Below, one piece after another: positions 25,926 through 49,916 of a DNA stretch of 64,000 nucleotides. The notes below the pieces were generated by a model, which searched no databases, was not told the origin of the DNA, and saw nothing but the letters and a program-made list of their open reading frames with translations. The DNA is taken from contig OZ374560.1 in the NCBI GenBank assembly GCA_977862235.1, forward strand, positions 1 through 64,000, in the 5' to 3' direction. The position numbers were made by a program, and so were the translations under genes. How positions within the stretch are numbered: position 1 is the stretch's first letter; the number at the start of each line of letters is the position of its first letter. This DNA comes from Dudresnaya verticillata. Taxonomy: Eukaryota.

Positions 25926-27346
25926 GGAAAACCCAAAACGCAAGACACGAGATGCAAACGAAAAATAAACTACAGGCAGCTGTTACCACTCAGCGAAGAA
26001 GAGTAGAGGTTGTTGCAGCGGGTTCAATGCGCAGTGGAGATGTTGCACCCTCTCCCTAGCTCTAGAAGTTTGAAAATGAACAAAAGGCTAGTCTTTCGTA
26101 GGGAAGGAAGCATACCATATGAGCTGATAGTGCTTTTGAAATTAAAGTGTGCGGGGTAAGGGTAGAGAAAGGATTCTTCAATGGCTCATCAAAGCACAAG
26201 TGTACCAACCCTGTGTCTTCTCGTTACAACAATAACGAGCTTGAGCATTTGTATTCCATCTCACGCAAGGACGCAGCTTGACTGATGATCTAACCGCAAG
26301 AGCCGACACTGATAGTGTGGATCAAGGAAGCACACGCGCGACCGGCAACGGCAGGCTATTGATGACGAGATTGTAGAAAAGTCGCAAGTCTGGCCTTGAA
26401 TAGAGAGGCAGACAGCAGCCCCGGAATTCGAAACGGTACCGAGATAGCGTCAGATGTCGAGGCCTGCATTTGTGTTAGTTGTTGAATTATGATTGAAACT
26501 GGTTTCATGCCTGCGACAAAACAACCGAACAGCAACGGCTACCATAGGTGGTTTATGCCCACGACTATCATCCTTTTCGAGGAAAAGAAGTACATTTCTT
26601 AGATATTTTGATGTCTGTTACCATCAGCATTGCCGTATCAATGTGGAGGCACGAGTCGAACATCACTGTTTCCATTCACTGTGATCCCTGTACTTCCTAG
26701 TGACATTGACTGTGCACAACTGGCGCCTGATGAAAGAAAAGAAGATCATGGCCTAGGGAGCGTGTTGCGCCCCGCCAGAGAAAGATGAAAAAAGCACACG
26801 TAGAGACTCCCAGAATAGCAGACGTGCTTGTCGCCGAAATGCGGTTCCTGGAGAGAACCGCACTGTAAACCAATGAGGAGAGAAGCATCACGTTACTTTT
26901 TGAGAAGCAACTGCATTTCTCCACAACAAGCTAGAAAAGCGCCGTGAAAGCAATTGAGACCGCCTTACGGAAAAGTTTGAGCATCAGTAGAATCGTTTTC
27001 ATAAGCCGCCAAGATGCTTCAGACTATCCTTCAATTACTTTTGCGTTTAGCTTCGGGCTTCATCGCATATGTTTGAAGTTGCCAGGGAATCTCCAGATTA
27101 GAGATACGATGAACTCCAGACCTGTTTGTAACCTATTGAGAAATGGAAGGTATTAGGCTAGCCGAGCAACACAGAACCTAGCCGCGGAAAAGATTCGGAA
27201 GTGTCACAAAGTGGGCTATGGCTCCATCGGCAGTGATGATGCAGATATTTTCTCCAGCGACAGAAAGGAAATGGGTACCCGACAGGTATAAGAAGAGTTT
27301 AGGACGTGACTGCGGTCGCCAGTCGTAGTACAGTGGTTTGCCTCAG

Positions 27347-30866: not shown

Positions 30867-31413
30867 CAAACTTGGAGAACAATGTAGACACGAGCTGTTA
30901 ACGTTATTCATTTCATCAAACAATACCGGTACCCGGACACAATTAATGAATTAATGCATGCTGAAAACCGACATCTTGACCTCATTTCCATACAAAATTC
31001 ATTGACTACATACAATTACAGAAATGAATAAACCTTATCCGCCATTATAAATAAGTATACTTTTACGTTATTTACAATACCTGTAAACTGTTCTTCATGC
31101 GGTTTCCGAAGCCTGCCGCATTCTTTCCCTATTTCGGAACCAAATTATGTGAACCATCATCACCTAGACCTTATTGTTGACGGCCAAGAGCAAAACTGGT
31201 CGTAGTGGGCCTCATGTGAGACCCACACCCATTCCTATCACACGCCATTTGGAGCCAAATCTGCCCGCACCTTGTACTATATTTAATACCTAGCCCACGG
31301 TGATGCATAGTATCCCCTAGCTGAAAGGGTGCGGTATAGACGCTGTGCGCAAAACCACTCCGTGGTCTACGTGAACATAGTCTAGAGACACGCATTTCGA
31401 AGTGACTCTTTAA

Positions 31414-31758
31414 CCCCGTGCCTGTTGCGTGAGGAAAAGTCCTCACGCATGACATGAGGTGAAAAATGGGTGATATTTGTGAATCGGCTCCGGTTGGTGA
31501 GACTCACCTGCCAAATCACCAAGCTCAGGTCGGCGACCCCCGGCCTCACCTCTCCTCACCCCAACCCCTCACCCCAACCCCTCACCTCACGCAGCTGAGT
31601 TTAACCCCCTCACCCTCACCCCTCACCCTCACCCCCTCCACTGCCACCACGCGACGCCGCCCCGCTCGGGCTGCTACCAAACCGAGCGCTCTCACGCCCG
31701 AGGTCGCAGGCTGCGGCCTGCCACGAACGGACGCCGCCCTGCCCGGCCTGCCGCGAAA
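31414..31758 (+). repeat. piggyBac left TIR (345 bp)
   Basis: Near-identical reverse complement of 46833-47177. Confidence 0.95.
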
Positions 31759-31893
31759 CCAACCCGCCATTCCACCCCCCCGAGGGCACAGCGTGCTACC
31801 AAGCCCAGACAACCCACGGGCACCCACGACGCGCAGCTTCGGCTGGGGCGCGCCCAAACCGCCATCCAACTACAACAAACTGCCCCGCGAGGC

Positions 31894-32880
31894 GTGCCCT
31901 GGCTGTCAAGAAGCCAAGCCGCCTCGCCCGGCGTTCCAATATCCCACGTAGACCCGTTCGGATTGCTGGCTAGCTATGCCGCCCCGCCTGGCCTGCCGAT
32001 GAAGTTCGCCGCCCCGACTTGCCACCCAAAAGTATCAAACATCATAGACGGGTCTGTGAAGGCGCCCTCGGTGCCAGTCTGGACCGAGGAGCAGCGCCGC
32101 ACCGTGCTTGCCTTATTGAGTGCAGCTGGAGTCGCTACTAGCGGTTTGAGTGGTTCGCCCACTGAGTGGGTGAACCAGTCTCTGGCGGCTGCGTCGCGTT
32201 CCCAAAGTGCGTCGGTGCCGGTGCCGATGGTTGGCGTAGGTTCTGCGTCGAAAGACGGTGCCGACGGAAAGTCGTCATCGCCTAAGGCGACTGGTTCAGC
32301 GTCCAAAGACGTAATTGATACTGTACCACCAGCGGCGAGCGAGGCAGATGTCGCTACAACGTCTCCGACGGTTGAAGAGGGCCCAGTGGCTCCTGCGTTG
32401 ATGACGGATATAGATCCAATGACGCCAAAGGCGGGTGAGGGGTCTACGTCGGTTCAGACGGTTGCGACAGTTGCGCCGAAGGCGGTATGTTCTGCGGCGC
32501 CGAAGACGAGCGATGAGTTGAACTCTACGCCAAAGGCGGTTGCGGTTGCTTCGCCGTCTAAGGGGACAGTCCCTGCAACTACGCCGAAGGCGGATGTTAT
32601 CGGGGCAGCGCCGGAGGCGAATGGACCACTTGGTTCTGCGCCGTCGGCGGTTGGGAAGGCCAAAGAGGCTTCGCCGCCTAAGGCGGGTGGCGAGTCGAAC
32701 CCTTCGCCAGGGGCGCATATTACTCCTTCAGCTGTGGCGGTGGCGGTGCCTTTGCGGTCCGTCCCTGTTGCCGCTGTGGGTGTGCCGTCAGTGACGGAAG
32801 ACGACCTCTATGAAGAGGCGTTGAGGGAGTCCGCCGATGGCGATGGTGCGGCGGACTCGGCCAAACCGTCTGCTACGTGA
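31894..32880 (+). CDS. E2 antisense accessory ORF, C-terminal part (Ala/Pro/Ser-rich)
   Basis: 328 open codons antisense to pol; shares the W....S.GV....VDPF motif with the E3 antisense ORF. Confidence 0.55.
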   Translation: MPWLSRSQAASPGVPISHVDPFGLLASYAAPPGLPMKFAAPTCHPKVSNIIDGSVKAPSVPVWTEEQRRTVLALLSAAGVATSGLSGSPTEWVNQSLAAASRSQSASVPVPMVGVGSASKDGADGKSSSPKATGSASKDVIDTVPPAASEADVATTSPTVEEGPVAPALMTDIDPMTPKAGEGSTSVQTVATVAPKAVCSAAPKTSDELNSTPKAVAVASPSKGTVPATTPKADVIGAAPEANGPLGSAPSAVGKAKEASPPKAGGESNPSPGAHITPSAVAVAVPLRSVPVAAVGVPSVTEDDLYEEALRESADGDGAADSAKPSAT

Positions 32881-34229
32881 CATAGTTAGCGTCGTTTAGG
32901 GCGGAAGGCCTTCGCGGGGGTGCGTATCGTGTACCTTGTCGGCTCCTTTGCGGAGTCGGGGCAAGGCGTCGTACGTCGTTGACGAATGTGTTAAATGTTC
33001 TGCGGCGTTTAGCCGCCGTGGCTTGTAGCTTGGGCGCGGGGCTTCCCCGTTGCTTAGCCCGAATGAATTGTATCGTTGGTAACGTAGTTTGGTTTCGTCT
33101 CGCTGCGACCGTCGTGTTGCAGCCGTCACGTCTTAGTGTTTTGCCACCGCGTTTCTTGTCTTCGTCGTGACGACGTTAGCATATTAATCGTCGAGAGACG
33201 TTACTTGGGCGTTGTACCTCCCTTCTTGTTCGCACATTAGCGTTGTGTAGCGCCCGGAGCGTATAGGGGTTTAGCGACGTTGTCGGTGCCGAGCCTCTTG
33301 GTTATCTCGCTTAGCGAAGCGTTTCTTTGCGTTGCATTTCATCCTGCCACGCCCGACGTAGTCGTCTTAGGGGACTCGCTCAGCGCGTTGTTGGGCCATT
33401 TGCAACGCCTGGGGCGTATTCTCTTCTCGTTTGGTGCGCTGTAGCTTAGTTGTGCGCATCGTCGTTGACGGAGGTCGGCGTGTGGTAGGTGAGGTCAGAG
33501 CCTTGTTCCTCGTCTCCGACGTTCGCCTTCGAGGGTGGGGAATGGTCGCCGCGCGACTGTGGCGGGCATTCCCAGCGGCGGAGCCGTTGCGCGATTTGGT
33601 TAGCGATTCGGTTGTGCGTCGTGCACGGAACCGTGATAAACGCGTCCTCGACGACTCAATCCCCCCCTTTGTCGGCGGGTTCGGCGGCGTGGTGCGTGTG
33701 TTCGTGCCCGGCCGAGCCGTTCGCTGGCTGGGGAAGTGAAGGCTGCAGCGACTTGGCCGTGGTGCGCAAGCGTGCGGCAACGTCGGGGACGGTCTTTGCG
33801 CGTTACGAAGTGCGTCTCTGCATGGCGACGTGCGCGCCGGTAGCACCAGTGCTGCCACTTGGCATACCTTGTGTGGCGTAATGGTTGATTGTCGGGTAGT
33901 GCGCCTCCCCTTTGTTTGTGCATTAAATTTTCCAGCTCGCGTCTGCGTCTGCAATGGGATTGGTGAGGCGCGTACCTCGGTGAGTGATCGGGAGCCACTG
34001 TCAGCCACCCGCGCATCCGGGGCGTTGTATGAGGGCCTTGTGGTGTGGTTGTCTTCGACGCCAGAATTGCATCCGGCTCCGTCTGTGACGTGTGTGCTTG
34101 ATTGTCGCCGCGGCGGGTGTGTCCGCGTCCACGTACGTGAGAGGGGGATTCCACGCCGTTGGCGACATCCGCCCGCGCAGTCTCTGAACGTCATTGTATT
34201 CGCTACTAGCGTTGTTTTCCCGATTAGGG

Positions 34230-37200
34230 TTATCCGCGCTGGGCGTCCTCAATATTTGGAGGCAGGCGCGTGTGCTTCCGACGGTGGTACCGCACGGCGT
34301 GTGATCGCGGCAAACTGGACACGGGCTCCCAGGTGTTCGCTGAAGCGGGGTATCCAAACCACTTGACGCGGTAGAGGATCTCACCGTCATCCGCGTAGGC
34401 GTGCGACTCGATGCGTTCGATAACGTATTCTTTCCCGCTCACAGCGTTCGGCTTGGACCGGTGTCCTTCCAGCGCCTTTGGCGGTTCGTCTCGTTGCGTT
34501 ATGGGCGTCTGTTCCGGTTCGGCGAAGCGTACTCGACGAGTTGATCGCCGAAGGCGTTGGCCTTGGGCCTCGGACGCTCGATCAGCGGTCAGTGGGTTGT
34601 TGCGTCTTGAGACGACTTCATCGCTTGCAGCGCTTTGCTTCGTACTTGCACGGTTAACGTCTTCGTTATCGGACGCGCTTTCAGCGGATTCATTGTTCTC
34701 ATTCGGCGGTGCCGTAGCGACGTGTTCCAAACGGGTGCGAACCCCTGGGGTATTGTCGTCGTTGGAGACGGATTGCGAAGCGCGGTCGTCGGGATCGGCA
34801 GCGAAGGGCGAAAGCTCTGCCAACCCACGACTGTGTGACGCTGTGGTCGTACGCTCTTGCGGATCTCTCGCAGTATTCGAAGTCTCCGCGTCCCCCTCCG
34901 GGTCCGCTGGTGGCGTGCTTGGGGTAGTCGTCCCTTCGTCTTGTGACGTGGGGGCGACTGCGTCCTGCTCCTCAGGTGGACCTGGTGGTACGACGATTGG
35001 AGGAGCCGCCTGGCCCGGTGGGGTCGGCGCCCAGACCACGCGGTCTCGGGACAAACGTTCCCGCTCATCACGTCCCTTGTCGACGGTTTCTCCCTTCGTC
35101 TGTAGACGCGAAAGGGCATCTGCCTGAGTATTCGGGTACCCCTTTTTGTACTTCACGACAAAGTCGAACTCGGAAAGGCGAAGGCGCCACCGCATTAACC
35201 GTCCAGAGGGGTCGCTGATTTCCATCAGCCACCTCAATGACGAATGGTCCGTATGGACTGTGAACGACTCCATCTGGAGGTAAGGTCGCAGCGTCATGAC
35301 GGACCATACTACTGCGAGGCACTCCTTTTCGGAGACCGAGTAGTTACGCTCTGGAGCGGTGAGTGAGCGGGACCAGAAGCCGAGTGGCTTACGTTCCCCG
35401 TCCGGCTGCATTTGAAAGAGAGCGCAGCCAACCTGATACTCGCTTGCGTCACAGTCGACGGAGTAGGGGAGATCCTGTTGTGGTAGCGCCAGTATAGGCG
35501 GATGAGTCACGGCCTCGACGAGCGTATTGAACGCTTTGGCTTGTGTCTCATCAAACGGTGGTAACCGGAAGTCCTGTTCCTTCCTCAGCAACTTGTCGAG
35601 GGGGGCAGCGACATGCGCGTATCGCGAGACGAACCGTCGGTAGACGTTACAAAGACCTAGGAAACTCCGTAGCTCCTTCTGATCCCGTGGATGCTTGGCT
35701 TCGCGTAGCGCGGCAGTGACAGTTCGGTCGACTTCTAACCGTCCTGGACGTATGACGTGTCCTAAGTAGTTGACGGTCGGGGTGAAGAAGTCACACTTGG
35801 TCAACTTCAGAGTCACCCCGGCGCGGTGCAATGTGGAAAGGATCTCGTCAACATGACGGAGGTGACTGTCGATGTCGCTGGAGAAGATTATTACGTCATC
35901 GAGGTAGACGAGGCACGAACGCCACTTGTAACCAGCGAGCAGTATGTCCAACGTTCGTTTAAACGTAGCGGGTGCGTTCGTGAGACCGAATGGCATACGC
36001 TTATAGCGGAACAGTCCAGCGTGGCACGTGAACGCAGTCTTATCGCGGTCTCGCGGATTGATCGGCACTTACCAGTACCCACTGTTACATTCTAGGGTGG
36101 TGAAGACGTTTGCTTCCCCTAGACTGTCGATGCATTCGTCGATACGCGGCAGCGGGTACGTGTCCCGTATGGTTACTGCGTTTAAACGACGGTAGTCCAC
36201 GCAAAAGCGGAGGGTCCCGTCCTTCTTGGGGGCGAAGACCACTGGTGACGCCCACGGCGATTGTGCGGGTTCGATAACCCCTTGACGCAGCATGCGGTCC
36301 ACTTCCGCTTGAGCGAGTTGCCTTTGCTTCGGCCCCGCTCGATAGGGCGGGGACGATATCGGCCTAGAGCCGGGAAGCAAGTCGATGTAGTGCTCTGTGG
36401 TTGAGATTTCTCCCAACGAACCGTCCCACATAGACGAATACTTGCGCAAAATCTCCTTAAGCCGGCCTTGATGCTCGGCGGGGAGATGGCTCAGGTCCAA
36501 ATCGTCTACCGACGGAGGTTTGGCAGTGGTTGCCTCGATAGACTTCGTGAAAGTATCCGGCTGTGCCGTACTGTTATCGTTCGTTTGAAAACGGAAATCT
36601 TGGTTTGCCTTCTACTCCTCGGCCTGTTCCTCTGTGAGGCCCAAAACATCGGCAAGACTTACGTGACTGGGGAACACTGCTGTCGGATGTGGTAACGCCG
36701 TCGCGGCGACTTGGCCTTTGGCCAGCGCCTGCGGGCGGGGAGAGAAGTTGGCAACCAGAATGCGAAACGCTTTTAGCGACTCCACTTGAGCAATCCCGTT
36801 CGTAACGGCCAACCCTTGTTTGTCGTACAGCGTTCCGAACGGTTGAATTGTGATGATACCGGCGCGCTCGGTGGTCACCAATACCCATTGCTGCGCCTTA
36901 GGCGGGATGATCGCGCGCTCGGCGACTCGGATCTTGGGCGACGTCCTCCCTTCGGCCTTGCCGTATTCCTGTTCCGTTGGTAACGGAGGATACGACGGGG
37001 GTCGGCGCAGCGGGCGGCGCGTTATAGGGACACGAGTCCCGTCATCCAATTCAACCTCGCGACTTCGCGGATATATTGCTTCGAAGAACCGGTCGCAAAA
37101 GTCGCAGCCGAGTATCACCGGCGCAGCGAGTCGTTCGCAAACGATCAGTTCCAACTTGACGACTCTCCGTCCTAGACGAACGATCAAGTCGATGGTGCCT

Positions 37201-37421
37201 CTTGTCTGGATCGCCTTATTGTTGGCTTCGGCTATGACGGGGAGGCTCTTTGTCACGATGCGCGATCGCGCTTCCAGCGGAATGTCGTCAATGCGAATGA
37301 AATTCGGACCAGCCCCCGTGTCGAGGACAGTGAGTTTACGTGCCAAGGTACTAACGGTTGCGCCCAAATCGGCGTACACCTTATAATTCCTCTTGGCCAT
37401 CACGAACAACTGCCCTTGCAC
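34230..37421 (-). pseudogene. pol: E2 pol: PR, RT, RNase H, chromodomain; in-frame stops at 36612 and 36069; no integrase
   Basis: LDTGA, YLDD, DASEY/EKECLAV, ADALSRL joined directly to ...RLSRDRV, then EYVIERI...YRVKWFGY...TWEP. Confidence 0.9.
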
Positions 37422-37590
37422 CCGGGGGGGCTGGTACCTTCGCCATGGGCGTTTTAATGACGTCTGTGACGACTCTATCCGCCCGTTGGCGTCATCTGAA
37501 ACTAACTTCGGGCCCCCCTCCGTGTCAGCACCCGAGGCCTAGGCCTTTCTTCGCGGTGCGACACCCCAGTGTCAGGAGTTGGTGCCCGAG

Positions 37591-40155
37591 TTAGTTTTTG
37601 GCCTGCGGCGGTGGTTGTGGCGCTTCATAGCGATTGACCATCGTCGGATGACGTTCTGCCGCGTGCGGCATGGGTCCGCCTCGTGGCGATTGTGGTCGTG
37701 CAGCACGGCGAGCGGCATCGCGGGTCGCGCGTTCCTTGCAACGTACATACGCATCAGCGGGGACACCAGCCTTCTCGGATTCGGTTAGTCCTTCATAGTT
37801 GGTAATAACCTTCATGAAGTCGCTCATGCGAAGGAAGCAGTCCGGCGTGATGTGTCCGCGGGCGTAGCATTGGTGGCATACCAGTTGCCGACGCGCGTCT
37901 TGACGGGGCGGGCCTCTGTCCTGCCACCCGGGCCTTGCTCGGTGGACGTGAGGGGCATACTCGGAATAGGGGACGCGTGGCGCTGGTATGACCGAGCGCC
38001 CAAAGGCGAGAACAGGGTCCATATCCCTTTCGTCCTCGTCATCGACGTAGCTGTCCGTCGGTAGAGCCGAGGTTGGCACCGACGCTTGCTCGTCTGCCAA
38101 GTACAAATCGCCTTCGGCGTGTGTTTCCATGTCACCGACAGGTCGACTAATGTCTCGGAACTCGACGGAGGACTCCGCTATCATAGCGCGCGCTCCAGGC
38201 TTGGCGCCTCTCGTCTGTGGACGCAGTACCCCTCGGGCATCGCCGATGGCGGATCGCGGTGTGCGTACGGCTTGAGCCGGTGTCAGTAGGTCACGTCGCG
38301 CTGACGCGGAACCGGCTCTGCCGTGTCGTGCGCGGTTGGCATCCCCTTCGTCCTGTTCGAAGTGGACCAGCCGCTCAAATGACAACTCCGCCCTTGGCGT
38401 TTCTTCTCGGAAGCGAGCGACCAGAGACCTGATCGACGGGTCTAACCCGTCGATGTACAGCGTCATCTTTTCCCAATCGGGATATACGTTACCGCAACGA
38501 ATACACGCACCGGCTAGCCGCATCCCATAGGTCGTCTCGTCTTCGCCTTGCTTTTGGGCAGTCGACCGTAGGGCGAGGACAGCGTCCCTGATCGCCGCTG
38601 GCGTAGCATACGTACGGAGGAGGTACTGTACCGCCTCCGGATACGAAGACACCCCGCCGCGATGGCGAGAAGACGTCGACTTGACGGAGCGGAATTGCGT
38701 GGCTGCCGTACATCGCAAGAAGTACGGCAGCGCGACGAACGCTTGGGCTTCGCTCATCTCCAGCGTATCGGCTTCATCCGCGTAACGCGTCAGGAACTCG
38801 AGGACCATGACGGGGTCGCTGCCGTTGAAGGCGGCGTCCTTCATGGTCAGCTCCAGTCGCTTAATGTGGTCCTTGACCTTGCCCGTATCGCGCCCTGAGC
38901 GTTTTTGTCCTACGTCTTTGAGACGGTAAGTCCGGTACGATAATAGCTGATCGAAAAGGGGGTTGGAGGGGCGTAGCTCCTTCAACCCCTTGAACCGCTT
39001 TCCGCGAGGTCTTGCCGCACTGCCGAGAGTTGGGAAGTCGTCGTCTTCAGACGAAGAGTCCGATGACTCTCCGTCACTTGACGAGTACGAAGACGATGAG
39101 GATGGGTCCCCTCGTCGATGACGATTCTTCTTCCGTCTCTGACGTAGCTTCCGACGGCGTTTCTTCCGGTCCTTACGTCTTTGACGATCTTCGCCTGAGC
39201 TCTCGTCACCTGACGGCGGACCATTGCGCCACTTGGCGGTTTCGAGACGCTCTAAGCGAGTCGCAAGTCGCTGAAAGCGTTCGCGTGAGCTAAGCTCAGA
39301 ATGCGAATGAACCGTTACTGCCGGCGGTGGCTGGGTACCCTCGCCTTGGGCGTTTTGGTTCGTCAATAGACGGTCGAGGTCGGATCGAAGTCCTTGTAGG
39401 GCGCCGTTCCGATCTTCTTCCAGCGTCTGTAGACGACTCGCGATTCCTCCGACACTGTCGTCCAGCAACCCGGCGAATCGAGCGAGCATCGCATCGTCCT
39501 CTAAGACGCACACCTCTCGGATCCGTTCGCGTGGTATCGTTAAGTTACTCACGCGGACGGCCGAGGGTGACGCCGTTGGCGGTTGGCTTTCGCGGTTGGA
39601 CCGGTCGGGCGTCCCTTGCGCCCTTTGACTTGGCGAATTCGGCTTAGCCGGTGAACAACCGGCACTGCCGTGGGGAGTGGGGCAACATGCCCCGTGTGTC
39701 AATGGTTCGTCCCCGACGTTGCGCTCCGCGGCGCGCCCCTGTTCGTCGTTGACGTGGATGGTTAGTTGATCCGGAAGTTCCGGTTGTCCCTCGACGATGT
39801 CGGCTTGTGTTCCGTCTACGACGTCCTGTTGCTCGGCTTGTACTGTATCAGCCGAGTCAACATAGGAGCGGTAGGTGCGGAGGGCCGATCCCTCGGGGAC
39901 GGAGGTGCGGACAACGACGGGGTTGTGGCGCGTCGGCGGGGGAGGTAACTCTCCTCCGTTGAGCGACGCGTGGGAGCCTGCGTGGCCGTGGCCCGGGGGT
40001 AGCGTCGGGAACGCCGACGCGATCTCGGGGCTCACGAGGCGCCCAGACCTCGTTGTCATCCGCTGTAGCGACCGTTCAGACACGGGTACACTCCCAGGCG
40101 TCGAAGACGGTCTTCTTGAACTTGGGCCTCGCGACGGCGGCGGTCGTGAGGCCAT
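37591..40155 (-). CDS. gag: E2 gag (854 aa, open)
   Basis: FNGSDPVMVLEF...LLRTYAT...YIDGL core and a CHQCYARGHITPDC CCHC knuckle; homologous to the E1 gag. Confidence 0.88.
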   Translation of the reverse strand: MASRPPPSRGPSSRRPSSTPGSVPVSERSLQRMTTRSGRLVSPEIASAFPTLPPGHGHAGSHASLNGGELPPPPTRHNPVVVRTSVPEGSALRTYRSYVDSADTVQAEQQDVVDGTQADIVEGQPELPDQLTIHVNDEQGRAAERNVGDEPLTHGACCPTPHGSAGCSPAKPNSPSQRAQGTPDRSNRESQPPTASPSAVRVSNLTIPRERIREVCVLEDDAMLARFAGLLDDSVGGIASRLQTLEEDRNGALQGLRSDLDRLLTNQNAQGEGTQPPPAVTVHSHSELSSRERFQRLATRLERLETAKWRNGPPSGDESSGEDRQRRKDRKKRRRKLRQRRKKNRHRRGDPSSSSSYSSSDGESSDSSSEDDDFPTLGSAARPRGKRFKGLKELRPSNPLFDQLLSYRTYRLKDVGQKRSGRDTGKVKDHIKRLELTMKDAAFNGSDPVMVLEFLTRYADEADTLEMSEAQAFVALPYFLRCTAATQFRSVKSTSSRHRGGVSSYPEAVQYLLRTYATPAAIRDAVLALRSTAQKQGEDETTYGMRLAGACIRCGNVYPDWEKMTLYIDGLDPSIRSLVARFREETPRAELSFERLVHFEQDEGDANRARHGRAGSASARRDLLTPAQAVRTPRSAIGDARGVLRPQTRGAKPGARAMIAESSVEFRDISRPVGDMETHAEGDLYLADEQASVPTSALPTDSYVDDEDERDMDPVLAFGRSVIPAPRVPYSEYAPHVHRARPGWQDRGPPRQDARRQLVCHQCYARGHITPDCFLRMSDFMKVITNYEGLTESEKAGVPADAYVRCKERATRDAARRAARPQSPRGGPMPHAAERHPTMVNRYEAPQPPPQAKN

Positions 40156-40260
40156 GATACAATCGTAGAGTTGCTTGAACGTCGTGGACGATTAGCGACA
40201 AACGTCAGAGACGGGGAGTCGGACGTCGCGCGACGGAGAAACTCGTTGAAACGTAGCACA

Positions 40261-40279
40261 ATTCTAGGTCGGGAGACCA
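40261..40279 (-). promoter_or_regulatory. E2 primer-binding site (same tRNA as E1, probably Tyr)
   Basis: TGGTCTCCCGACCTAGAAT on the minus strand, 2 nt after the LTR. Confidence 0.8.
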
Positions 40280-40281
40280 GA

Positions 40282-41130
40282 TGTGGTGCAAACGTCTGTC
40301 GACGATGGACCGCCGAGCAGTTCGGGGCTCGGTGGGTAGCTGCGCCCTTGGCGAGAGGTGGTCCCGCCGTGGGCGACTTGGTGGTAGAGCAAAGGAACAC
40401 GCCTTGGGCGGACTGTAGACGCCGAGGCGGAAGGTGTGAAGGAAGGAAAAAGGGAACAGAAAAGGGAAGCACGTCAAGGACGGGTAGAGACGTGGAAGCA
40501 CGGGAGGTAGACGCTTAGCCGTAGGCAGCGGTAGGGTACGCGCGTGCGGAACGGGGAAGTCTGGACCAAGGCCGGCTTGTCCAGGGTTTACTCAGCATCG
40601 CAGACGGATTACCTAATATACAGTACTACGTGAGCGACGGCGGTAGGCGCGGTGAGCGGGAACTCAGGACGCGTGTCACGTCGTCGAGCGTCTGACACGT
40701 CGTCGTCGCCATGCAGCCGCGCGCGCGAGAGCTCAGGAGTAGCTTACAGGCGCATGCGTGTAGCGTTGCGGGCGATCCGGATTCGGATCCAGATCCCGGC
40801 CAGCATTGCTGGCGCGCGGCCATTACAGGCGCGCTCCTTACATCGCTGTGGATCCGGATGCCGGATCCCGGAGTCCCATCCGGATCCGATCCGGATCCGG
40901 GCCAAGCTTACAGGCGGGCGCCCTGCGCCCGGCCGATCGGGATCGTGCATCCGGATCTGGCCGTACAGTGGGCGCGTGCGCCGCGCCGCGCGGGGTAACG
41001 GCGGCCGTATGCCCGTGGGCCAATCGTCGATGACGTGTTCGCGCGCCAACGGCGGTGGACGTTCCGTCGGTGGACGTTGGCATATAATACGCTCAGAGCG
41101 AAAAAGGGGCAGCCCTCCCCTTGCACCACA
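40282..41130 (-). repeat. E2 5' LTR (849 bp)
   Basis: Perfect TGTGGTGCAA...TTGCACCACA termini; GGATCC-rich U3; homologous to the solo LTR at 47682-50251. Confidence 0.9.
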
Positions 41131-41863
41131 AAAAGGCCACCCTACAAAGGTGCTAAGAATCGAGATGACCCAACCTCGATGTCACGAGTTGCAGCCGCCT
41201 CGTCCGTCCTTCTGCTACACCGAGCCGCGGCGGAAGCTCGGGCAGGATTCGTTATGCCTGGGCTGATACTAAATTGAGCCCTCCGCCCCGAGGTCGCAAG
41301 CTGGCCTCCGCCGTGGCCGCGACCTTCCAAGAAACCACGCTGCCCTGCTCAGACTTCTACGACGCGCACCACTCCGACTGGTCTGGCACGACGCCACGCC
41401 GCGCCCTGCCGACTATATATAAGTGTACGTACCAGGTTGCCACTCCGCCCTGCCTGCCACCACAACCCGCGTTGGGCCGCGAAGCGCGCTTGCCGAAAGG
41501 GTCCGGCCTGCGACAATACTCATCACGCCTGCCCGCCTGTTTGCCGTGCATCGCGACGCCATGGCGTCGCCCTGTCCGGCCTGCCTGGCCTGGCACCATA
41601 CCACGCTCCCGAGACTGGCCTGCTACCATATCAACACACTCCCCAATCCTGCCGTGGTAGCGTCGACGCCACTGTGCCACGCCGCGTGTGTGCAGCGCGC
41701 GCGACCTACCACCATATGTATTACCATGTGTATACACACCATGATGACATTGTTAGGTGCATTAAACTTGGATCACTCGCTACGATTCGTATAGAACGTG
41801 CGCACGTGCGCGGAAGAATTATCAGCGTGGTACGAAGAGTGTTCACCACCCGCCCGCGGAGGC

Positions 41864-42150
41864 GGACGGGTGGTGTAGTGGTTCACCGCTGCGCCGTTGA
41901 TTCCTGGAAACCGAGTTCGACTCCCGCCAGGTCCCATGGTTCTACATTGTCCTCAAGGATTTTTCCCCACCGGGGTTGTTTGCCCATTCTTCTCATGGAG
42001 CCGGCTGGACTGCCTCCAGATTACGGGTGTAAGCCCGTCTAGTGTACCATACAGTAGATATCTGGTTGGTAGGGCGTGTGCCTGCAAATGGGCCCTAGTC
42101 GCCCGCGCAACCGCGCACGTTAAAGATTCAATAAAGTACAACACCACAAC
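41864..42150 (+). mobile_element. tRNA-derived SINE candidate
   Basis: A box TGGTGTAGTGG (41871), B box GAGTTCGACTC (41913); 3' tail homologous to the LINE 3' end at 20601-20675. Confidence 0.7.
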
Positions 42151-42344
42151 TGGCTACCTTTGAATGTAAATGCAGTTACAGTCCAGCGCATGTACTAGTG
42201 ATATTGTTGCTGCATGGGAAGGGGCTGGTATGGAATCGTACAAACGTTTTTCAACGTGCCCTAGTGTGCACACTCCTAGGTGTAGAAGGATAGTGCTTCA
42301 TGAAGCACTGCAACTAGCGGAGCAGGTGCTCTGGTACTTTATCT

Positions 42345-45300
42345 CTACACATTATTGGACTGCTGACTGCGTCTACGGCTACTTCGCGAACGTTCGAATC
42401 TCGGTGGCGGTACAGCAATCATTTCTTCATCGTCCTCATCCGACTCGGGGCACATCTTGCGCTGGACTTTGGCCTCGAAGTGAGCCCGCTGTGGTGTAGA
42501 TATTGTGGCTCTGACTAGTACCTTCTCTGTGTGCCACTGTTCCCAGCAGGCATTACAGATTGGTTGTCTGCAAACAAAACACCACTGTCTCATTCTAGCA
42601 CCGCCTTTCTTCCTGAAAGACTTTCCTTGTAGCTTGAGCGTAAAACTATAACAACATAGGGAGCAATATGCGTCATTGCCTCGAACTCTATGATGAGTGC
42701 TTGCTCTGCCTAATCTGCGGTCAGCGTCTGCCATGCGGTTGTACTTCCCTACAGCATACTTAGTGTAGCGCCGAGTAGAAATGACCTGCTTGTGCGTTTC
42801 CGGTGCAGCACCACCGGGCGGCTTTTGCTCAACGAAATCCTTCGCAAGCATGCGTGCGAACCCCGAAACTGTGCAGCGCTTCGAGACATCATGACGCATA
42901 GATGTGTATCCCTTTCTTCCAAGACGTGCATAGTTTTCGATTTCTAGCAGGAGCCCTTTTGACTTCGCTACCACAAGTCGATATACGATAGCGGCGTTGC
43001 TAACTTGTGCGCATAAAAGCCTTCCCAGGACGCTTACGATGGGGCTCTCGGAAGAGTTGTACTGAGAAAGGCTCTTGAGAGTGCGACTGAATTCGTCTAC
43101 GCCTCCTTTAACGTGATTCCAGTAGACCAAACTTGAAGGCCTTATCATTCGGGCCGGAGGGAGTGGACCGTGCCGCTTCACAAGCTGCTTGTATGCTTGG
43201 CTCAAGTTGTAGAAAGACAGACCCAAAAGAGTAAAGGTCTGTGGCATGCGTGTTAATCAGTATTTCGTCGAAAGTGCTCGGAATCAGTCTTGCATTACCG
43301 CCAATCCATTGGAAGCAAGATACACGAATTGAGGACATCACGTACTTGTACATGGCAAGGATGGTTTCACTGAACTCCAAAATTGCACATTACAGAATAG
43401 TGCCGATGCCAGTGTTGCTCCCCTTGGCGACGACAAATACAACTCGGGGCTTCCCTAGTACGGCTGCGTGATAGAGAAATTGCAAGCGATAGGCTGTGCT
43501 GGGCACCAGTTCATGGAAGACGTTAGTTGTTTCTTGGCAGGTTCCCACCTGTACACGCACAATACGTCCGTAACGTGATCTAACTTTCTCCGCCTTCAGA
43601 ATTGTGGAAAGTGAAGTCATTGTCTTGATTTCGATAGAACAAACGAAGATATCGTCATACTCAGTAGCTAGTGCAAGGATACCGTCCGGGCTCCCGGCTA
43701 GCATCTCTGAATAATTAGACCCGATGAGGCCCACAGTGCAAATTTACTTAACCATATAGACTGCAGTGGCACGGTTGCTGTCGAGCCCAGCTTCCGCGGT
43801 ACTTCTCGCCAGTATAACCCGGTGTTCTGAGAAGAACGACGGCATGCGCTTGAGAACCTCGGCTTCATTTCCCGATCCTTCTTTCATACCCGGCGTGCTA
43901 ACCAGGGGCCTCATGAACCATGCACTCAAGGAAGCAGAGTACATAACGCCTCTCATTTTGTCAGCATGCTCCTTCAATCTCTCATCTTCCGAAATGTCTT
44001 CATTATCCCGGGTGCTGATTTCCACATCACCACTTAGGTAACTCTTTTTAAGGTTCAACAGCTTTTCGAAGAGCTGTGCTTTCCTTGTTGATGCTGTTTG
44101 CCGACAACCAAGAGATGAAAGCAATGCAGACAATACTCGGACTGTCATGCCTCTCTCACTTAGTGTCTCAGCAGTACAACTTCGTAGTGTATCCACTGCT
44201 TCTGTCGTGGCACCTGATTGCGGTGCTTCTCTCTTCTGCATATTCAGAACACATAAGATAGGGTCCCAGTTGCCGGCCAAAACTATTCCCGTGCTGTGTG
44301 CATCCGATGGCAGTATCGCAGCTCCGGTAGTAATACGTTTTCCCTTCAACAGCTCTGACATTCCATCCAAATGTTTAACGAAGTCGCTAGAGAATGCTGA
44401 AACGAATCCATGCGTCGTTCTTGATGTGAAGAGAAAGGCTCTTGCCAAAAACCAGCCTGGATCCTCCGACTGTAACACTGTGTAATGTCTAATGCTGGAT
44501 ATTGCGAGAGAGACTCTCAATCGAGGAATATAAGTTGTATCGTTCTCGTATTGCCTGCTTCGAGATGAACGCTGATTCAAGGTGCCCCTTGTGGCGTTGC
44601 AGCCGCTGTATATCTCCTAGAAGAGATCACCAGATGTACACGAGGGATTCCGGTACCGGTATCCGCTCTTTGGTATTAGTGTGAAAGAGTTGGCCCCAAC
44701 CAGCTCTGTGTTATTGTGATACATAGCAGCTATTCGTCCAGTTACTGCCTCTCGATAGACCAGCGCTTGAACTTTCTTCCCTGTTGCACCTGTTCTCTTC
44801 ATTGTCGCGCTATATACAGCACGGCTCCCTTGCTCACTGACCTTCATGCCTTTGTGTCGCTTAGAAATTGGTCCCTCCCCAAACACGAACTGAAAGTCCA
44901 AACTGCGCTTGTGTGTCCCGAGTCCAGTCGCTCCAAGTGTGTCGTTGATGAACGCTATCACCTCCTTCGAATTGTAACTCCTATCCGCAGCAAAAACTGC
45001 GTCGGTCATCGGTACGATTGCTCCTGGGGTTGCGCTTCGTTGAATTAGCGGCACAAGTCACTGCAACACATCCAGGATCTTTTCCCTTGGACGTGAGTAG
45101 TGGCTTGCTATGAAGGCAGATGTTAACGCAGAACATACGGCGTTATTTACGGGCCGAGGGCTTTCTGGGGGTTGTTAATGTGGGACAAGTTTGTGAGTTG
45201 GGTTACCGCACGTGACCGCAACCTTTGGTGGTCATCGTCCAGGATGAATATAGTCTTGCCTGGGACGTAAACAACCGCACGATTGATGGCAGCAAGTTCG

Positions 45301-46649
45301 TTTTCCAGTTCTGTGATAAGCTGGTTCCCCTCTATGGGTCTGTTAGACCACCCAGTGCCTAGATCCTGTACTCTCTGTCGTCTGTCCTTCGTGCCACTCA
45401 GAGCTGACCACACGTTCAAGCACCTCCTTCCGGACAGTCCAGTCTGGAAGAAGAAGTACTTATTACCGGGTTCAGCCATGGTAGTAACAGAGCATTGATA
45501 TGAGGCAGCGAAGACATGCGTCACAATAACAAACTTGACCTCATGGCATGTGGTTAAAGGCTTTGATTTGGCCTTCAGCACTCTGTTAATGTGGGCTTTA
45601 AGCTTTGATAGCAACGAAACCGGCAAAAAGACATCGAATAGTGCGAGGGGGGGTACTGAGGTTTCCGTTACGAGCACAGACTCTCCAGTATTGACTTGTA
45701 CCTCGTACAATGCGTTGCTCAGTATCTTGTTCGCCTCCCACAAAAACCTCTTGCCCAGACTCTCATCTACGTCATCGAGCCGCATCTCCACATCATCGAG
45801 AGCAGGAGCGTAATCCCAGTCGGGCAGTCCTCCAACTTGATGGGCAGCACTTCTTTCGGATGCGCTGGCAGTGTTAGTAATCTGCTGCAGCAAATGAGTC
45901 TCTTCCTCTGCCATAATTTCCGCGTTTTCCCATAGCAGGTCTGTTGGGTCGTGAAACAAAGAGGACCAATAGTCATCAGTTGCCACCTTGCGTGCTTCGT
46001 TTGTGCTTCTCGTTACATCGATATCAGCAAAAGGGGTAGAGACGCGTCTTGCGGGAACCAATTCATGGTAAAGGGCTTCAACTTCCGCGTCTGAGACAAC
46101 CATGTCACTTGGGGGTATCGAATTTTCAGAGTCTGTTTCACCAGCAGCAGCGCTGCTCGAATCGTTTTGTTGTTCCCCACGGAAATCGGTATTTGCAGCT
46201 ACTCCTGCCTCTGGAAAGTAAAGCCCGTCTTGCTCAGAGCCAGACGATCCTACTGTATCTTTCAGAACATTTTCGTGTGCATGCGGCAACGTCCTGCGTC
46301 GTGCACCGTCATTACCCGGACCATCATTACATGGCCCCGGAGTGTCAGCGGAACCGAAACGCAACTGGCGGCAAACTGCGTTCGGACTGGTAGCTTCATG
46401 GTCTCGGTCGAAACCTCGAGCTTGATGTTCACCCGCGTTTGCCAGCCGCAATGCATATCCTCCATTCACTTCGTCAGGTGATGCAGAAATACCCCGGGGT
46501 ATCGACCGATGGGTCGGCGTCAGCGCGAACAAATCATCGCAATGCTCTCGTGCAGGCCCCTCTGTCGGGGCTGCACCACTATTTAGATGCGGGTCTATCT
46601 TTTCGGGAGAGGGCTCGAAAATGCAAACTCCTCGATCGGAGCTTTCCAT
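42345..46649 (-). pseudogene. piggyBac-like transposase (~1430 codons) with inserted SAP-like and YqaJ/lambda-exonuclease-like domains; several stops and frameshifts
   Basis: D1 ILDDDH, D2 AADRSYNS...GT, SAP-like MTVRVLSALLSSLG...KAQLFEKL, GSPDG...EIKT...Q..YH nuclease, D3 WNHVKGGVD, Cys-rich CSLC...CFVC..PICNAC...WH. Confidence 0.82.
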
Positions 46650-46832
46650 GTCTTATGATAGCCTGCTTTCGCCTGGCCAGTTCGAACTAGTGACTAGTCA
46701 ACAGGTTCGTAACAATTATACACAATCACGAACTTTCTAAACAACAAGTCCTCACTTCCTGAACACTTGTCCAGCACAAAGACTAGCCTCTGTAAGGTGG
46801 CTGCGATAAAAACAGTGCGCAGGCTTGGAAGC

Positions 46833-47177
46833 TTTCGCGGCAGGCCGGGCAGGGCGGCGTCGGTTCGTGGCAGGCCGCAGCCTGCGACCTCGGGCGTGAG
46901 GGCGCTCGGTTTGGTAGCAGCCCGAGCGGGGCGGCGTCGCGTGGTGGCAGTGGAGGGGGTGAGGGTGAGGGGTGAGGGTGAGGGGGTTAAACTCAGCTGC
47001 GTGAGGTGAGGGGTTGGGGTGAGGGGTTGGGGTGAGGAGAGGTGAGGCCGGGGGTCGCCGACCTGAGCTTGGTGATTTGGCAGGTGAGTCTCACCAACCG
47101 GAGCCGATTCACAAATTTCACCCCTTTTTCACTTCATGTCATGCGTGAGGACTTTTCCTCACGCAACAGGCACGGGG
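46833..47177 (-). repeat. piggyBac right TIR (345 bp)
   Basis: Reverse complement of 31414-31758. Confidence 0.95.
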
Positions 47178-48251
47178 TTAAATGCGCACGCCACGATGGC
47201 AAACGTATGACAATACGCATACTCTGCGCGCGCCACGATGGAATTCGCATTACAGCACGCACGCGATACGAAATCGCTGACACCCCGGATGAATTCAGAG
47301 CTGACTTGTTGATCACGCGCGCTACGAATTACAGTGCACAGCCGATACGAAATCGCTGACATGTTCGTGATCTTCCCATTGTTTCCCACGCGTGACGGCA
47401 CCGAGGCCCACGACGCGAGTGCACCTCCGTATGCATCGCTGGCGAACTTCGTAACCGCCACCATACGTGAGACCCCCGTTCCTTGGCACCGAGGCCGTTA
47501 CGAATCATTCGAGTACGAACCGTCTCCGGCGTTGACGTGTATTCATGCTCATGTATTATTACTTAGCCAGTCGTCTGGCACAACCTCCGAGGGTTTCCGG
47601 CAAGCGACTAGCGCCCGGACCTCGGAGTCTTCGGTAAACGCCTGTTTTTTCGAGTTGGGTGTCTTCCTCTTCGTGCCTGCGTGTGGTGCAAGGGGGGGTG
47701 AGCCCCTTTTTCGCTGAAAGCGAAGCAACAAATACGTCGACCGACGGAGAAACCGCTACCGGCGCTCAACACCGCCGTTGGCGCACGAACACGTCATCGA
47801 CGGCTCACTGGGGTGCGCGCGCACGTTGCGCGCCGCGCGCCATGCGGGCACTGTACGGTGATGGGCCGATATGGCGCCCCGGGGCACTGTAACACGGATC
47901 TAGATGGGATCCGGATCGGGTATCCAGATTGGCTATCTGGATCGTCTGCGCTGTAAGGTACGCGCCTGTAAGGCTGCGAGTGTTCGCATTGCTGGCCCGG
48001 ATCCGGATGGGGATCGGGATCAGAAAAGTATCGGATTAGATCAAGGGCGCACGCTCTACAGTACACGCGCGCGCACAGCTGTAAGGCGCACGCGTCCACG
48101 TGTGTGTAAGCGCCCACGCAGGGGGTTGCGCGGCAACCTGTCAGGCGCGCGGCTGCATACGATGGGTGATCTGTCAGACGCGCCTCGGGACGACACGTGT
48201 CCCGAGTTCCCGCGCTACGCACACGCACCGCCGCCGCCGCACCGCCGTGCT

Positions 48252-49916
48252 AAAAGCAATAAAGAGGTAATAAATAAAACATTGTCTATGTCTATTCCCG
48301 CAACCTGAAACGATGATTATTTTACGTGCGGACGGTGCGCGGGCCACCTCTAGATAAGCTAGAGTGCCCTGTCGGTGCACAAAGTTGACAACTAAACAAC
48401 AATTATGCAAAAAGAAGAATGCAGACGGCTAGACGCACCGGCGGGAATCGAACTGATGGCACAGCTTGGGCGGGGGAAGACACCCCAACTCCCCCCGCGC
48501 CTTCGACCCCTCCGCCCGAAAGAAATTCATATATATACGCGCAATTCTATATGATACAAGCTGTTTGCAATCACATTCTGGCGCGAAAAGCGGAACACTG
48601 CAACCGGCAGCTAGCCTTAAAGGGAGCGAGGACCCTCCTTGGACACTGTACCCCACCCTCACCCCACCACATCAGTTCAAAATGCCTCGCGGCCGCCTTC
48701 TCTCTGCCGAAGAGAAGGGGCAGATAACTGCCTACTCCAAGTCGCTGTTAAGCGTCCGAAAAATCGCACAACTCATCAGACGCTCTCCCGGGGCCGTCCA
48801 GAACTTTCTTAAGCACCCTAAAGTGGTGAACGGATTCAAATCGGCCGGAAATGCCCGGAAACTCAAGCTGCGTCAGACCCGCCTTCTACTCCGCGAAGCC
48901 GCAAAAGGAGAAATGTCGTATAGGGAACTACAAGTATCCCTCGAACTCCCCGTTGGAGTCCGGCGCGTGCAACAGCTCTTAAAGGCCACCCCTCATCTCA
49001 AGTACAAGAAGATGCTGAAGCGCCCGCAAATGCTTAAACGTCACAAAGATGCTCGCTTGAACTGGGCAAAGAAGATGCTGGAGAATGGACCGGAGTTCTG
49101 GCGCAGCGTGGTATTCTCCGACGAAAAGAAGTTTAAGTTGAACGGTCCTGACGGTAATGCCTCATACTAGCACGATCTACGAAAGGAAGAAAAGGTCTTT
49201 TCAACAAGGCATTCGGGTGGTGGTTCTTTGATGCTGTGGGGGGCCATTTCGTGCAGTGGGGTTTCGATGCCTGTGTCCATTGAAGGTACTCTTGACTCCT
49301 CACAGTACTACCAGATACTAGAGGAGGAGTTATTGTCCTTTGCGAGCAAGAAGATTGGGTCGGAATGGGTTTTCCAACAAGATAATGCGTCTTGTCATCG
49401 GTCCAACTATACCAAGATGTGGTTCTATAGTAAGGATGTCGACGTTCTAGAGTGGCCGGCAAAGTCCCCGGACCTGAAAGTCATCGAGAATGCCTGGGGG
49501 TTGATGGCGAGCCGTGTTTATGAGTGTGGTAAGCAGTTTGAACTGTTGAGGACTTGACTGAAAACGTTTTAGATGTTTGGGACGGCTTGTCCTTAGACTA
49601 TCTTCAAACTCTTTACGACTCGATCCCTCGTCGCCTTGTAGAGGTCGTCGAGCGAAAGAGTAATGCCACCAAGTACTAAGAAGCCCAAAATAAAATTTTC
49701 TTTGTTGTGTATCATATAGAATTGCGTGTATTTATTCTATTTTCGGTAATGTTTTATTTTTTACCTCTTTACTGCCTGCCGCGTTTTAATATCTGATTAC
49801 AGATTTGGATTCTCCTGCCAATAATGTATTTGGACGAGCTCTGTCTCGTTCCAAAGCAAAGGGCAACCCCCTTTCTGTAAAGTCTCTGGGGTGTTTTATG
49901 CGATTTTCGCACACTG
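48252..49916 (+). mobile_element. Tc1/Tc3-like DNA transposon, outer left end deleted
   Basis: Right end ...CACACTG|TA. Inverted sub-repeats 48256-48283/49748-49775 and ~48533-48559/49705-49731. Confidence 0.85.
48682..49679 (+). pseudogene. Tc3-like DD34E transposase (TAG at 49168, frameshift ~49545)
   Basis: MPRGRLLS HTH start, FSDEKKF, FQQDNA-x34-E (WPAKSPDLKVIE). Confidence 0.9.

What the first reader, a model, noticed from the sequence alone, without database searches (positions are those of the whole stretch)
42345..46649. piggyBac-type transposase with SAP-like and YqaJ/lambda-exonuclease domains inserted inside the catalytic core
Seen: the fragments join through single stops or frameshifts into ~1430 codons, more than twice a canonical ~600-aa piggyBac transposase. 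Order: D1 (ILDDDH), D2 (ADRSYNS..GT), SAP-like helix pair (~44060-44160), PD-(D/E)XK motif LAGSPDG...EIKT...Q.LYH (~43470-43700), D3 (WNHVKGGVD), Cys-rich domain. The element has TTAA TSDs and CCCC ends. Established: YqaJ-like exonucleases accompany ISL2EU and some other DNA transposons, usually as separate proteins; canonical piggyBac transposases lack them. Inference: an undescribed piggyBac lineage with a second nuclease in the insertion domain.
Basis: partly seen in the sequence, partly recalled or inferred. Interest (0 to 1): 0.8.

Follow-up and report, generated by a model that had tools for sequence, protein, structure and literature searches.

The report
PiggyBac transposase with built-in exonuclease
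This is a broken copy of a jumping gene whose piggyBac-type cut-and-paste enzyme carries a whole second, phage-lambda-like DNA-end-chewing domain inside its catalytic core, a design kept by many distant relatives and likely used to process the DNA ends that jumping leaves behind.

Summary
Confirmed and extended. The gene (46649-42345, minus strand, 1434 codons, four stops, two frameshifts) lies in a 15.8-kb element (31410-47181) with 345-bp inverted repeats, TTAA at both ends and an empty-site paralogue. Open-frame homologues (Gracilaria changii, Chondrus crispus, Plasmodiophora brassicae, unnamed contigs) share the layout; a profile search finds 2175 cluster representatives. In 40 aligned relatives, most about 20% identical, both the DDD triad and the exonuclease active site are (nearly) invariant. 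A homologue's AlphaFold model (pLDDT 92) matches piggyBac transposase (Z 25.1) on both sides and the whole lambda exonuclease (Z 14.2) in between; the SAP motif sits inside the exonuclease. It is therefore not a separate insertion. The exonuclease's job is untested; my lead guess (about 40%) is resection of the donor break, favouring copy-restoring repair. Lambda-like nucleases are known in ISL2EU and KolobokE, but not inside a catalytic core in the papers I could search. The lineage may already be Repbase/Dfam 'PiggyBac-X' (untestable here). This scan noted the same architecture before in other genomes.

The parts
31410..31413 (.). TTAA target-site duplication, left
   Evidence: flanks joined over one TTAA align without gaps to a paralogous repeat at 62626-62523 (84/104)
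31414..31758 (+). Left terminal inverted repeat, 345 bp, starts CCCCGTG; ten CCTCAC motifs and an inner TTAACCCC at 31601
31501..32880 (+). 459-codon Ala/Pro/Ser-rich open frame starting inside the left repeat; function unknown, may not be a gene
   Evidence: no Pfam hit
34230..40623 (-). Cargo or nested insertion: defective Ty3/gypsy-like retroelement (gag-like frame, protease, RT, RNase H, chromodomain; no integrase hit; one LTR-like end at 40281-40623, no second LTR found)
40634..41137 (.). Dispersed repeat of about 500 bp; a second, inverted copy lies outside the element at 47675-48237
   Evidence: E 3.8e-34
41250..41362 (+). Degenerate internal copy of the inner part of the terminal repeat; possibly the remnant of an older left end
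   Evidence: E 1.8e-5
42345..46649 (-). Decayed transposase gene, 1434 codons, 4 stops and 2 frameshifts (near 45150 and 43216)
45834..46649 (-). Acidic, poorly conserved N-terminal region
   Evidence: mean identity 0.16 among 10 full-length homologues
45240..45833 (-). N-terminal part of the dimerisation and DNA-binding domain
   Evidence: profile match to 6x67 and 9c0f; fold match
44497..45239 (-). RNase H core with D1 (45239) and D2 (44985), then the beta-rich native piggyBac insertion region and a variable linker
43200..44496 (-). Lambda-exonuclease/YqaJ domain (W 44454, R 44442, E 43866, S-P-D 43692-43684, E-x-K 43632-43624, Q 43482); lower end approximate
   Evidence: VIA-align Z 14.2, rmsd 3.4 over 210 of 226 residues of 3slp; conservation; mapping
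44029..44178 (-). SAP/LEM-like helix pair nested inside the exonuclease domain
   Evidence: Pfam SAP in 14 of 40 homologues; profile hits to Tho1 and Ku70; fold hits Z 4.3-6.2
42672..43140 (-). D3 helix (WN..KGGVD, D at 43097) and C-terminal part of the DNA-binding domain
   Evidence: aligns to T. ni residues from P433 on
42525..42671 (-). Cys-rich C-terminal domain, six conserved cysteines
   Evidence: 36/37, 37/37 and four times 36/36 rows with a residue; aligns to the T. ni Cys-rich domain
46833..47177 (-). Right terminal inverted repeat (upstream of the transposase)
47178..47181 (.). TTAA target-site duplication, right

Best explanation
This is a decayed copy of a TTAA-inserted piggyBac-lineage DNA transposon whose single transposase holds a complete lambda-exonuclease domain, itself carrying a SAP motif, between the second and third catalytic aspartates; in intact relatives the DDD core likely cuts and pastes as piggyBac does, and the exonuclease likely chews back the 5' ends of the break left at the donor site so that repair would copy the element back from the sister chromatid. 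Shown by sequence, profile or predicted fold: element ends, empty site, domain nesting, both active sites conserved in relatives, shared history of the two parts (about 0.95). Inferred from piggyBac chemistry: hairpin excision leaving 5'-phosphorylated TTAA overhangs at the donor site. Inferred and untested (about 0.4): the exonuclease acts on those donor ends, turning seamless, copy-neutral excision into copy-gaining gap repair, with SAP holding it on DNA. This copy cannot make the full protein and would depend on an intact helper.
For: Fold: model of homologue P0004 (pLDDT 92.1, pTM 0.85) matches 6x67 at Z 25.1 (rmsd 3.5, 386 of 478 residues, model 29-1007) and 3slp at Z 14.2 (rmsd 3.4, 210 of 226, model 441-870). 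Profile of 40 homologues: T. ni piggyBac E 8.4e-9, piggyBat E 2e-8, with piggyBat 103-374 before and 401-463 after the insert. Conservation: D1 38/39, D2 40/40, D3 39/39; exonuclease W, R, S, D, E, K, Q each 40/40 and motif-I E 39/40. W697 and R701 fall on lambda positions 24 and 28; R28A and K131A abolish lambda exonuclease activity (PMC5758106, passages). Trees of the transposase part and the exonuclease part of 10 full-length homologues share the clades (P0003,P0004), ((P0005,P0010),P0009) and (P0006,P0011); Mantel r 0.87, p 0.0003. Lambda exonuclease digests the 5'-ended strand and leaves long 3' overhangs (PMC3424549, passage). Sister-chromatid gap repair restores excised elements (PMC3878927, passages). 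piggyBac leaves a seamlessly repairable donor site (PMC7351741, passages). Weak, non-specific support: this copy carries foreign DNA and an internal repeat remnant, as abortive gap repair can produce.
Against: No activity was measured and no coordinates were available, so whether the exonuclease can reach donor, flap or target DNA is unknown. Lambda exonuclease works as a toroidal trimer (title of 1avq), whereas piggyBac is a dimer. The position equivalent to T. ni Y283, which contacts the hairpin, is not aromatic in this family, so hairpin chemistry may differ. The 40 rows were chosen by length from the best hits of a profile that contains both domains, which favours proteins that have both; 2025 of the 2175 hits were not listed and not inspected. 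The Mantel test is driven partly by one distant row (P0027), and several tree nodes have low support. The model is of a homologue about 44% identical, not of the window's protein.
Confidence: 0.45

Rival explanations
1. The exonuclease trims the short 5' flaps on the transposon ends or at the strand-transfer junction, so that the element can integrate where flap and target do not pair.
For: The insertion domain lines the channel that holds target DNA (PMC7351741), so a nuclease placed there would be near the junction. Flap-processing relatives (Dna2, MGME1, Exo5) appear lower in the fold lists. An unchecked scan note reports a CTAT duplication in a relative.
Against: This copy has a perfect TTAA duplication, where flap and target pair and need no trimming. 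The best folds are duplex-end exonucleases (Z 14.2, 13.0), not flap nucleases (Z 7.6 or less).
Confidence: 0.25
2. The PD-(D/E)XK domain cuts the non-transferred strand, as TnsA does for Tn7, and replaces hairpin formation.
For: TnsA is a PD-(D/E)XK protein used in transposon excision (PMC3424549). The Y283 position is not aromatic. Both active sites are kept together in 40 rows.
Against: The W/R pair that serves end recognition in lambda exonuclease is invariant, which points to a need for a free end. The equivalents of hairpin-contacting Y439 and N440 are kept as W (39/40) and N (40/40). TnsA itself is not among the 50 listed fold hits, which is inconclusive.
Confidence: 0.18
3. The nuclease does something apart from the cut-and-paste steps, such as destroying stray excised copies, promoting recombination with cargo, or degrading host nucleic acids.
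For: Herpesviral alkaline nucleases and mimivirus R354 share the fold (Z 9.1 and 12.2). The function of ISL2EU's YqaJ frame is stated to be unknown (PMC4482050).
Against: Nesting inside the catalytic core rather than in a separate frame suggests action at the transpososome (inference).
Confidence: 0.1
4. The exonuclease stretch is a separate mobile insertion or a chance fusion that broke an ordinary piggyBac gene in this genome.
For: The window's copy is broken, and three of its four stops (44619, 43746, 43392) lie in or just before the insert.
Against: No inverted repeats around it; open-frame proteins from a Gracilaria transcriptome and the Chondrus genome have the same insert; shared clades in both trees; 39 of 39 measurable relatives have a long D2-D3 spacing.
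Confidence: 0.02

Closest known systems
Trichoplusia ni piggyBac and piggyBat transposases (PDB 6x67/6x68, 9c0f; Pfam PF13843)
   Same: TTAA duplication, CCC ends, DDD triad, same fold on both sides of the insert (Z 25.1 and 20.4), C-terminal Cys-rich domain, D1-D2 spacing 81-87 in well-aligned rows against 78.
   Different: D2-D3 spacing 488-834 aa against 101; about 1430 codons against 594 aa; terminal repeats 345 bp against the usual 12-19 bp (PMC5381638); only 12-14% identity in the structural alignment; Y283 position not aromatic.
Lambda exonuclease / YqaJ family (PF09588; PDB 3slp, 3syy)
   Same: Whole fold, 210 of 226 residues; W24/R28 positions and the D, E-x-K catalytic motif kept; P0002 passes Pfam's cut-off, 25.3 against 22 bits.
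   Different: Nested in a transposase; interrupted by a helical region with a SAP motif; oligomeric state unknown.
KolobokE
   Same: [quoted passage not shown]
   Different: The nuclease lies downstream of the transposase domain; Kolobok ends are 5'-RR; the transposase carries the C/DxxH signature and is not of the piggyBac kind.
ISL2EU (PHIS superfamily)
   Same: DNA transposon that encodes a YqaJ domain (PMC4482050, passages).
   Different: YqaJ is in a second reading frame; AT duplication; GG ends; DDE/HTH/THAP transposase; reported from animals.
RepeatMasker/Dfam class DNA/PiggyBac-X (Repbase piggyBacX)
   Same: The class name is reported for Plasmodiophora brassicae repeats (bioRxiv 10.1101/2025.07.30.667784, one passage), and that organism encodes a member of this family (P0062). 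My recall, from no call, is that the group was defined in Repbase from red alga and oomycete elements.
   Different: Unknown. No sequence or definition of the class was available, so identity with this lineage and any earlier mention of the exonuclease could not be checked.
Tn7 TnsA + TnsB
   Same: A PD-(D/E)XK nuclease paired with a DDE transposase.
   Different: Two separate bacterial proteins; TnsA is an endonuclease, while this domain has the end-recognition residues of lambda exonuclease.

Membership tests
piggyBac superfamily (broad sense) | TTAA target-site duplication | tested here: met
   TTAA at 31410 and 47178; empty-site paralogue aligns across the junction, 84/104
piggyBac superfamily (broad sense) | Terminal inverted repeats beginning C-C/A/T-C/A/T (PMC5381638) | tested here: met
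   both ends begin CCCCGTG
piggyBac superfamily (broad sense) | DDD catalytic triad in a piggyBac-type RNase H fold | tested here: met
   D1 38/39, D2 40/40, D3 39/39; all three present in the window; Z 25.1 to 6x67 against 16.5 to Tn5; profile E 8.4e-9
piggyBac superfamily (broad sense) | C-terminal cysteine-rich domain | tested here: met
   six conserved Cys; aligned to the T. ni domain within the 6x67 hit; the isolated domain 5lme scores only E 8.8
piggyBac superfamily (broad sense) | Hairpin excision with seamless donor repair | not testable with these tools
   W/N at the Y439/N440 positions kept, Y283 position not aromatic
Canonical T. ni-type piggyBac-like elements | About 600-aa transposase with about 100 residues between D2 and D3 | tested here: not met
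   D2-D3 488-834 aa in 39 of 39 measurable rows
Canonical T. ni-type piggyBac-like elements | Terminal repeats of 12-19 bp | tested here: not met
   345 bp
YqaJ / lambda exonuclease | Lambda exonuclease fold | tested here: met
   Z 14.2, rmsd 3.4, 210 of 226 residues; Z 12.5 in an independent model of P0002
YqaJ / lambda exonuclease | Catalytic PD..(D/E)XK residues and the R28/K131 pair | tested here: met
   D952, E969, K971, R701, W697 each 40/40; present in the window; positions mapped
YqaJ / lambda exonuclease | Pfam PF09588 above cut-off | tested here: inconclusive
   P0002 passes; only 1 of 40 members hits at E 0.01, 2 of 26 at E 0.05; the window's pieces do not
YqaJ / lambda exonuclease | Processive 5'-to-3' activity as a toroidal trimer | not testable with these tools
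   no assay; no complex prediction was run
SAP domain | Helix-loop-helix SAP motif | tested here: met
   Pfam SAP in 14 of 40 homologues, best E 2.2e-10; Tho1 E 1.3e-4; no Pfam hit in the window's own copy
ISL2EU | AT duplication, GG ends, YqaJ in a separate frame | tested here: not met
   TTAA, CCCC, single frame
KolobokE | [quoted passage not shown] | tested here: not met
   5'-CC ends; nuclease before D3
PiggyBac-X (Repbase/Dfam) | Sequence similarity to the class's reference elements | not testable with these tools
   no Repbase or Dfam library; only the class name was seen in one preprint

The most novel reading that the evidence does not exclude
A large, ancient eukaryotic transposon lineage (red algae, rhizarians, probably oomycetes and diatoms) runs on a two-nuclease transposase in one chain: a piggyBac DDD core plus a nested lambda exonuclease that processes DNA ends at the transpososome, either steering donor repair towards copy gain or replacing hairpin excision. 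That would be a new transposition chemistry, and the architecture is not described in the papers searched.
Probability: 0.45. Interest if true: 0.8.

Novelty: new variant of a known kind. Interest (0 to 1): 0.6.

Why it matters
piggyBac excises without a trace, which leaves open how natural elements gain copies. A lineage that has kept an end-resecting nuclease inside the transposase over deep divergence makes that question testable with one point mutant. Three unrelated transposon groups (ISL2EU, KolobokE, this one) have recruited the same nuclease, and its role is stated as unknown for ISL2EU. Here it comes in one chain with a well-studied transposase fold, and open-frame versions are on record. 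It also shows that the piggyBac insertion domain tolerates 400-700 extra residues, which is relevant to fusing domains to piggyBac tools.

Tried and rejected
No whole genome is held for the window, so copy number and intact helpers in the host are unknown. Pfam on the window's fragments: no relevant hit. PDB sequence searches with the narrow red-algal profiles A1 and A4 found nothing meaningful; only the wider profile A5 reached piggyBac. No metagenome locus was confirmed (27 pattern matches, none passed tblastn), so ends and target sites of relatives were not seen, and no dN/dS could be computed. No sequencing run was listed; this says nothing about expression. The ESM Atlas gave one cluster (score 0.97, 1206 aa, SAP in 20%, commonest taxon Oomycota with phylum known for 2 members), a lead only; later Atlas requests did not complete. 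Four stops against 1.3-2.5 expected from the repeat divergence (P 0.04-0.25) do not decide whether the gene decayed before or after this insertion. In one search three row labels were misplaced (motif-I E is 892, motif-IV Q is 1020); searches use the right positions. Literature: ten searches found no description of this architecture; 'piggyBacX' gave 0 papers and 'piggybac-x' 1. The Kojima review in Genes Genet Syst and Zhang et al. 2011 are not held; the supplement of PMC5381638, which lists Chondrus elements, could not be read and may bear on prior naming; the supplements of PMC9587614 hold no 'piggyBacX' or 'exonuclease'.
Full report
Observation. On the minus strand an ATG at 46649 opens a frame to 45150; a second frame runs 45150-43216 through four stops; the first frame resumes 43217-42348. 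Together these are 1434 codons. Five of five intact homologues tried align in exactly these three collinear pieces at 33-49% identity. The window's own pieces give no Pfam hit to the expected families, so the domain calls come from relatives.

The element. A self-comparison finds one 350-base inverted pair, 31409-31758 and 46833-47182. It resolves into TTAA plus a 345-bp repeat beginning CCCCGTG at each end, with 5 mismatches. Joining the two flanks over one TTAA gives a sequence that aligns without gaps, 84 of 104 bases, to a paralogous repeat at 62626-62523, and the right flank goes on matching that repeat for about 400 bases. The mobile unit is thus 31410-47181, 15.8 kb. Between the left repeat and the gene lie a 459-codon low-complexity frame, a defective Ty3/gypsy-like element without an integrase hit or a second LTR, a 500-bp dispersed repeat and a degenerate piece of the terminal repeat at 41250-41362. 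Whether these were captured before or inserted after the jump is not resolved. The host is probably a red alga, inferred from the closest named relatives.

Relatives. Word-based searches gave 5, 11 and 26 proteins. They include a complete frame from a Gracilaria changii transcriptome (P0002, 1372 aa, 47% identical), two Chondrus crispus proteins (1315 aa) and Agarophyton chilense fragments. A profile search of 1.84 billion representatives gave 2175 hits at E 0.001 and 334 at 1e-30, of which 150 were listed. One of 10 long hits looked up has an organism name, Plasmodiophora brassicae. I aligned 9 close full-length proteins with 31 of the longer listed hits (A5, 40 rows, the distant ones 18-25% identical to P0002). 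D1 is kept in 38/39, D2 in 40/40, D3 in 39/39; the exonuclease residues W697, R701, S950, D952, E969, K971 and Q1020 each in 40/40 and E892 in 39/40. D2-D3 spacing is 488-834 in the 39 rows where it can be measured, against 101 in T. ni (D346, D447; PMC7351741, passages). The rows were chosen with a profile that has both domains, which biases towards this result.

Domains. The A5 profile hits T. ni piggyBac (E 8.4e-9) and piggyBat (E 2e-8). piggyBat 103-374 aligns before the insert and 401-463 after it, and the T. ni match resumes at P433, the end of its insertion domain. It also hits SAP proteins (Tho1 E 1.3e-4), LHK exonuclease and mimivirus R354 (E 0.012) and, weakly, lambda exonuclease (E 1.8), whose residues 17-49 pair with profile 460-492; this puts W697 and R701 on lambda W24 and R28 if that stretch is ungapped. 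A model of homologue P0004 from 109 sequences has pLDDT 92.1 and pTM 0.85. It matches 6x67 at Z 25.1 (386 of 478 residues, model 29-1007), piggyBat at 20.4, Tn5 at 16.5 and lambda exonuclease at 14.2 (210 of 226 residues, model 441-870), with SAP/LEM-like hits at 535-594 (Foldseek agrees). An independent, weaker model of P0002 gave the same order of hits. The nesting is therefore three levels deep: SAP inside the exonuclease, inside the piggyBac insertion region. Beta strands at model 313-385 suggest that the native insertion domain is kept.

Not a separate insertion. No inverted repeat flanks the exonuclease stretch (8 bp, background mean 8.2). Trees of the two parts from 10 full-length proteins share three clades, and their distances correlate (r 0.87, p 0.0003), although some nodes are weak and one distant row adds to the correlation.

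Mechanism. Established: piggyBac nicks the transferred strand, forms hairpins and leaves complementary TTAA overhangs that close seamlessly (PMC7351741, passages); lambda exonuclease digests the 5'-ended strand of duplex ends (PMC3424549, passage) and needs R28 and K131 (PMC5758106, passages); repair from the sister chromatid restores excised elements (PMC3878927, passages). Inferred: the donor overhangs carry 5' phosphates, the nested exonuclease resects them, and repair shifts from religation to copying, so that each jump adds a copy (about 0.4). Rivals: trimming 5' flaps at junctions (0.25), TnsA-like second-strand cutting (0.18), a role away from the transpososome (0.1). Against the lead reading: no activity data, trimer against dimer, and a non-aromatic residue at the Y283 position, although W and N stand at Y439 and N440.

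Comparison and novelty. It meets the testable features of the piggyBac superfamily but not the size and repeat length of canonical elements (PMC5381638, passages). [quoted passage not shown] Ten literature searches found no account of a nuclease inside a piggyBac core; PMC6431247 and PMC4455052 (passages) add nothing. One preprint names a repeat class DNA/PiggyBac-X in P. brassicae (one passage), where a member of this family occurs. I put about even odds on this lineage being that class; this rests on co-occurrence and recall, and Repbase and Dfam could not be read. Earlier notes of this scan describe the same architecture in other genomes; they are unchecked AI notes and are not counted as support.

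Verdict. A real, conserved and unusual architecture in a dead copy: a new variant of a known kind, possibly already named, with an untested but directly testable mechanism. Interest 0.6.

Noticed in passing
window 1-about 1000: Telomere-like CCCCTAAA repeats open the window, so the locus is subtelomeric.
   Followed up: no
window 5883-10343 (+): A 1486-codon frame starts as Ty3/gypsy RT-RNase H-integrase and continues, by eye, into a second, non-LTR-type reverse transcriptase; possibly a LINE piece inserted in frame near the chromodomain. A direct repeat pair 1282-1547 / 12353-12618 (98%) may be its LTRs.
   Followed up: no
window 31501-32880 (+): 459-codon Ala/Pro/Ser-rich frame that begins inside the left terminal repeat; no Pfam hit; Atlas request not answered.
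   Followed up: partly
window 31601 and 46990: Each terminal repeat holds a second TTAACCCC about 190 bp inside, which could serve as an alternative end.
   Followed up: no
window 41250-41362 (+): Degenerate internal copy of the inner terminal repeat, about 6 kb from the right end; the ancestral element may have been about 6 kb long.
   Followed up: partly
window 48256-49775: Tc1/mariner-like element with inverted ends and a broken transposase (HTH_Tnp_Tc3_2, E 7.1e-5) next to the piggyBac.
   Followed up: partly
window 25212-25982 (-): Frame that looks like a Ras-family small GTPase, by eye.
   Followed up: no
proteins P0020 and P0030: Two database proteins appear to join distant parts of this transposase, consistent with internally deleted copies or gene-model artefacts.
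   Followed up: no
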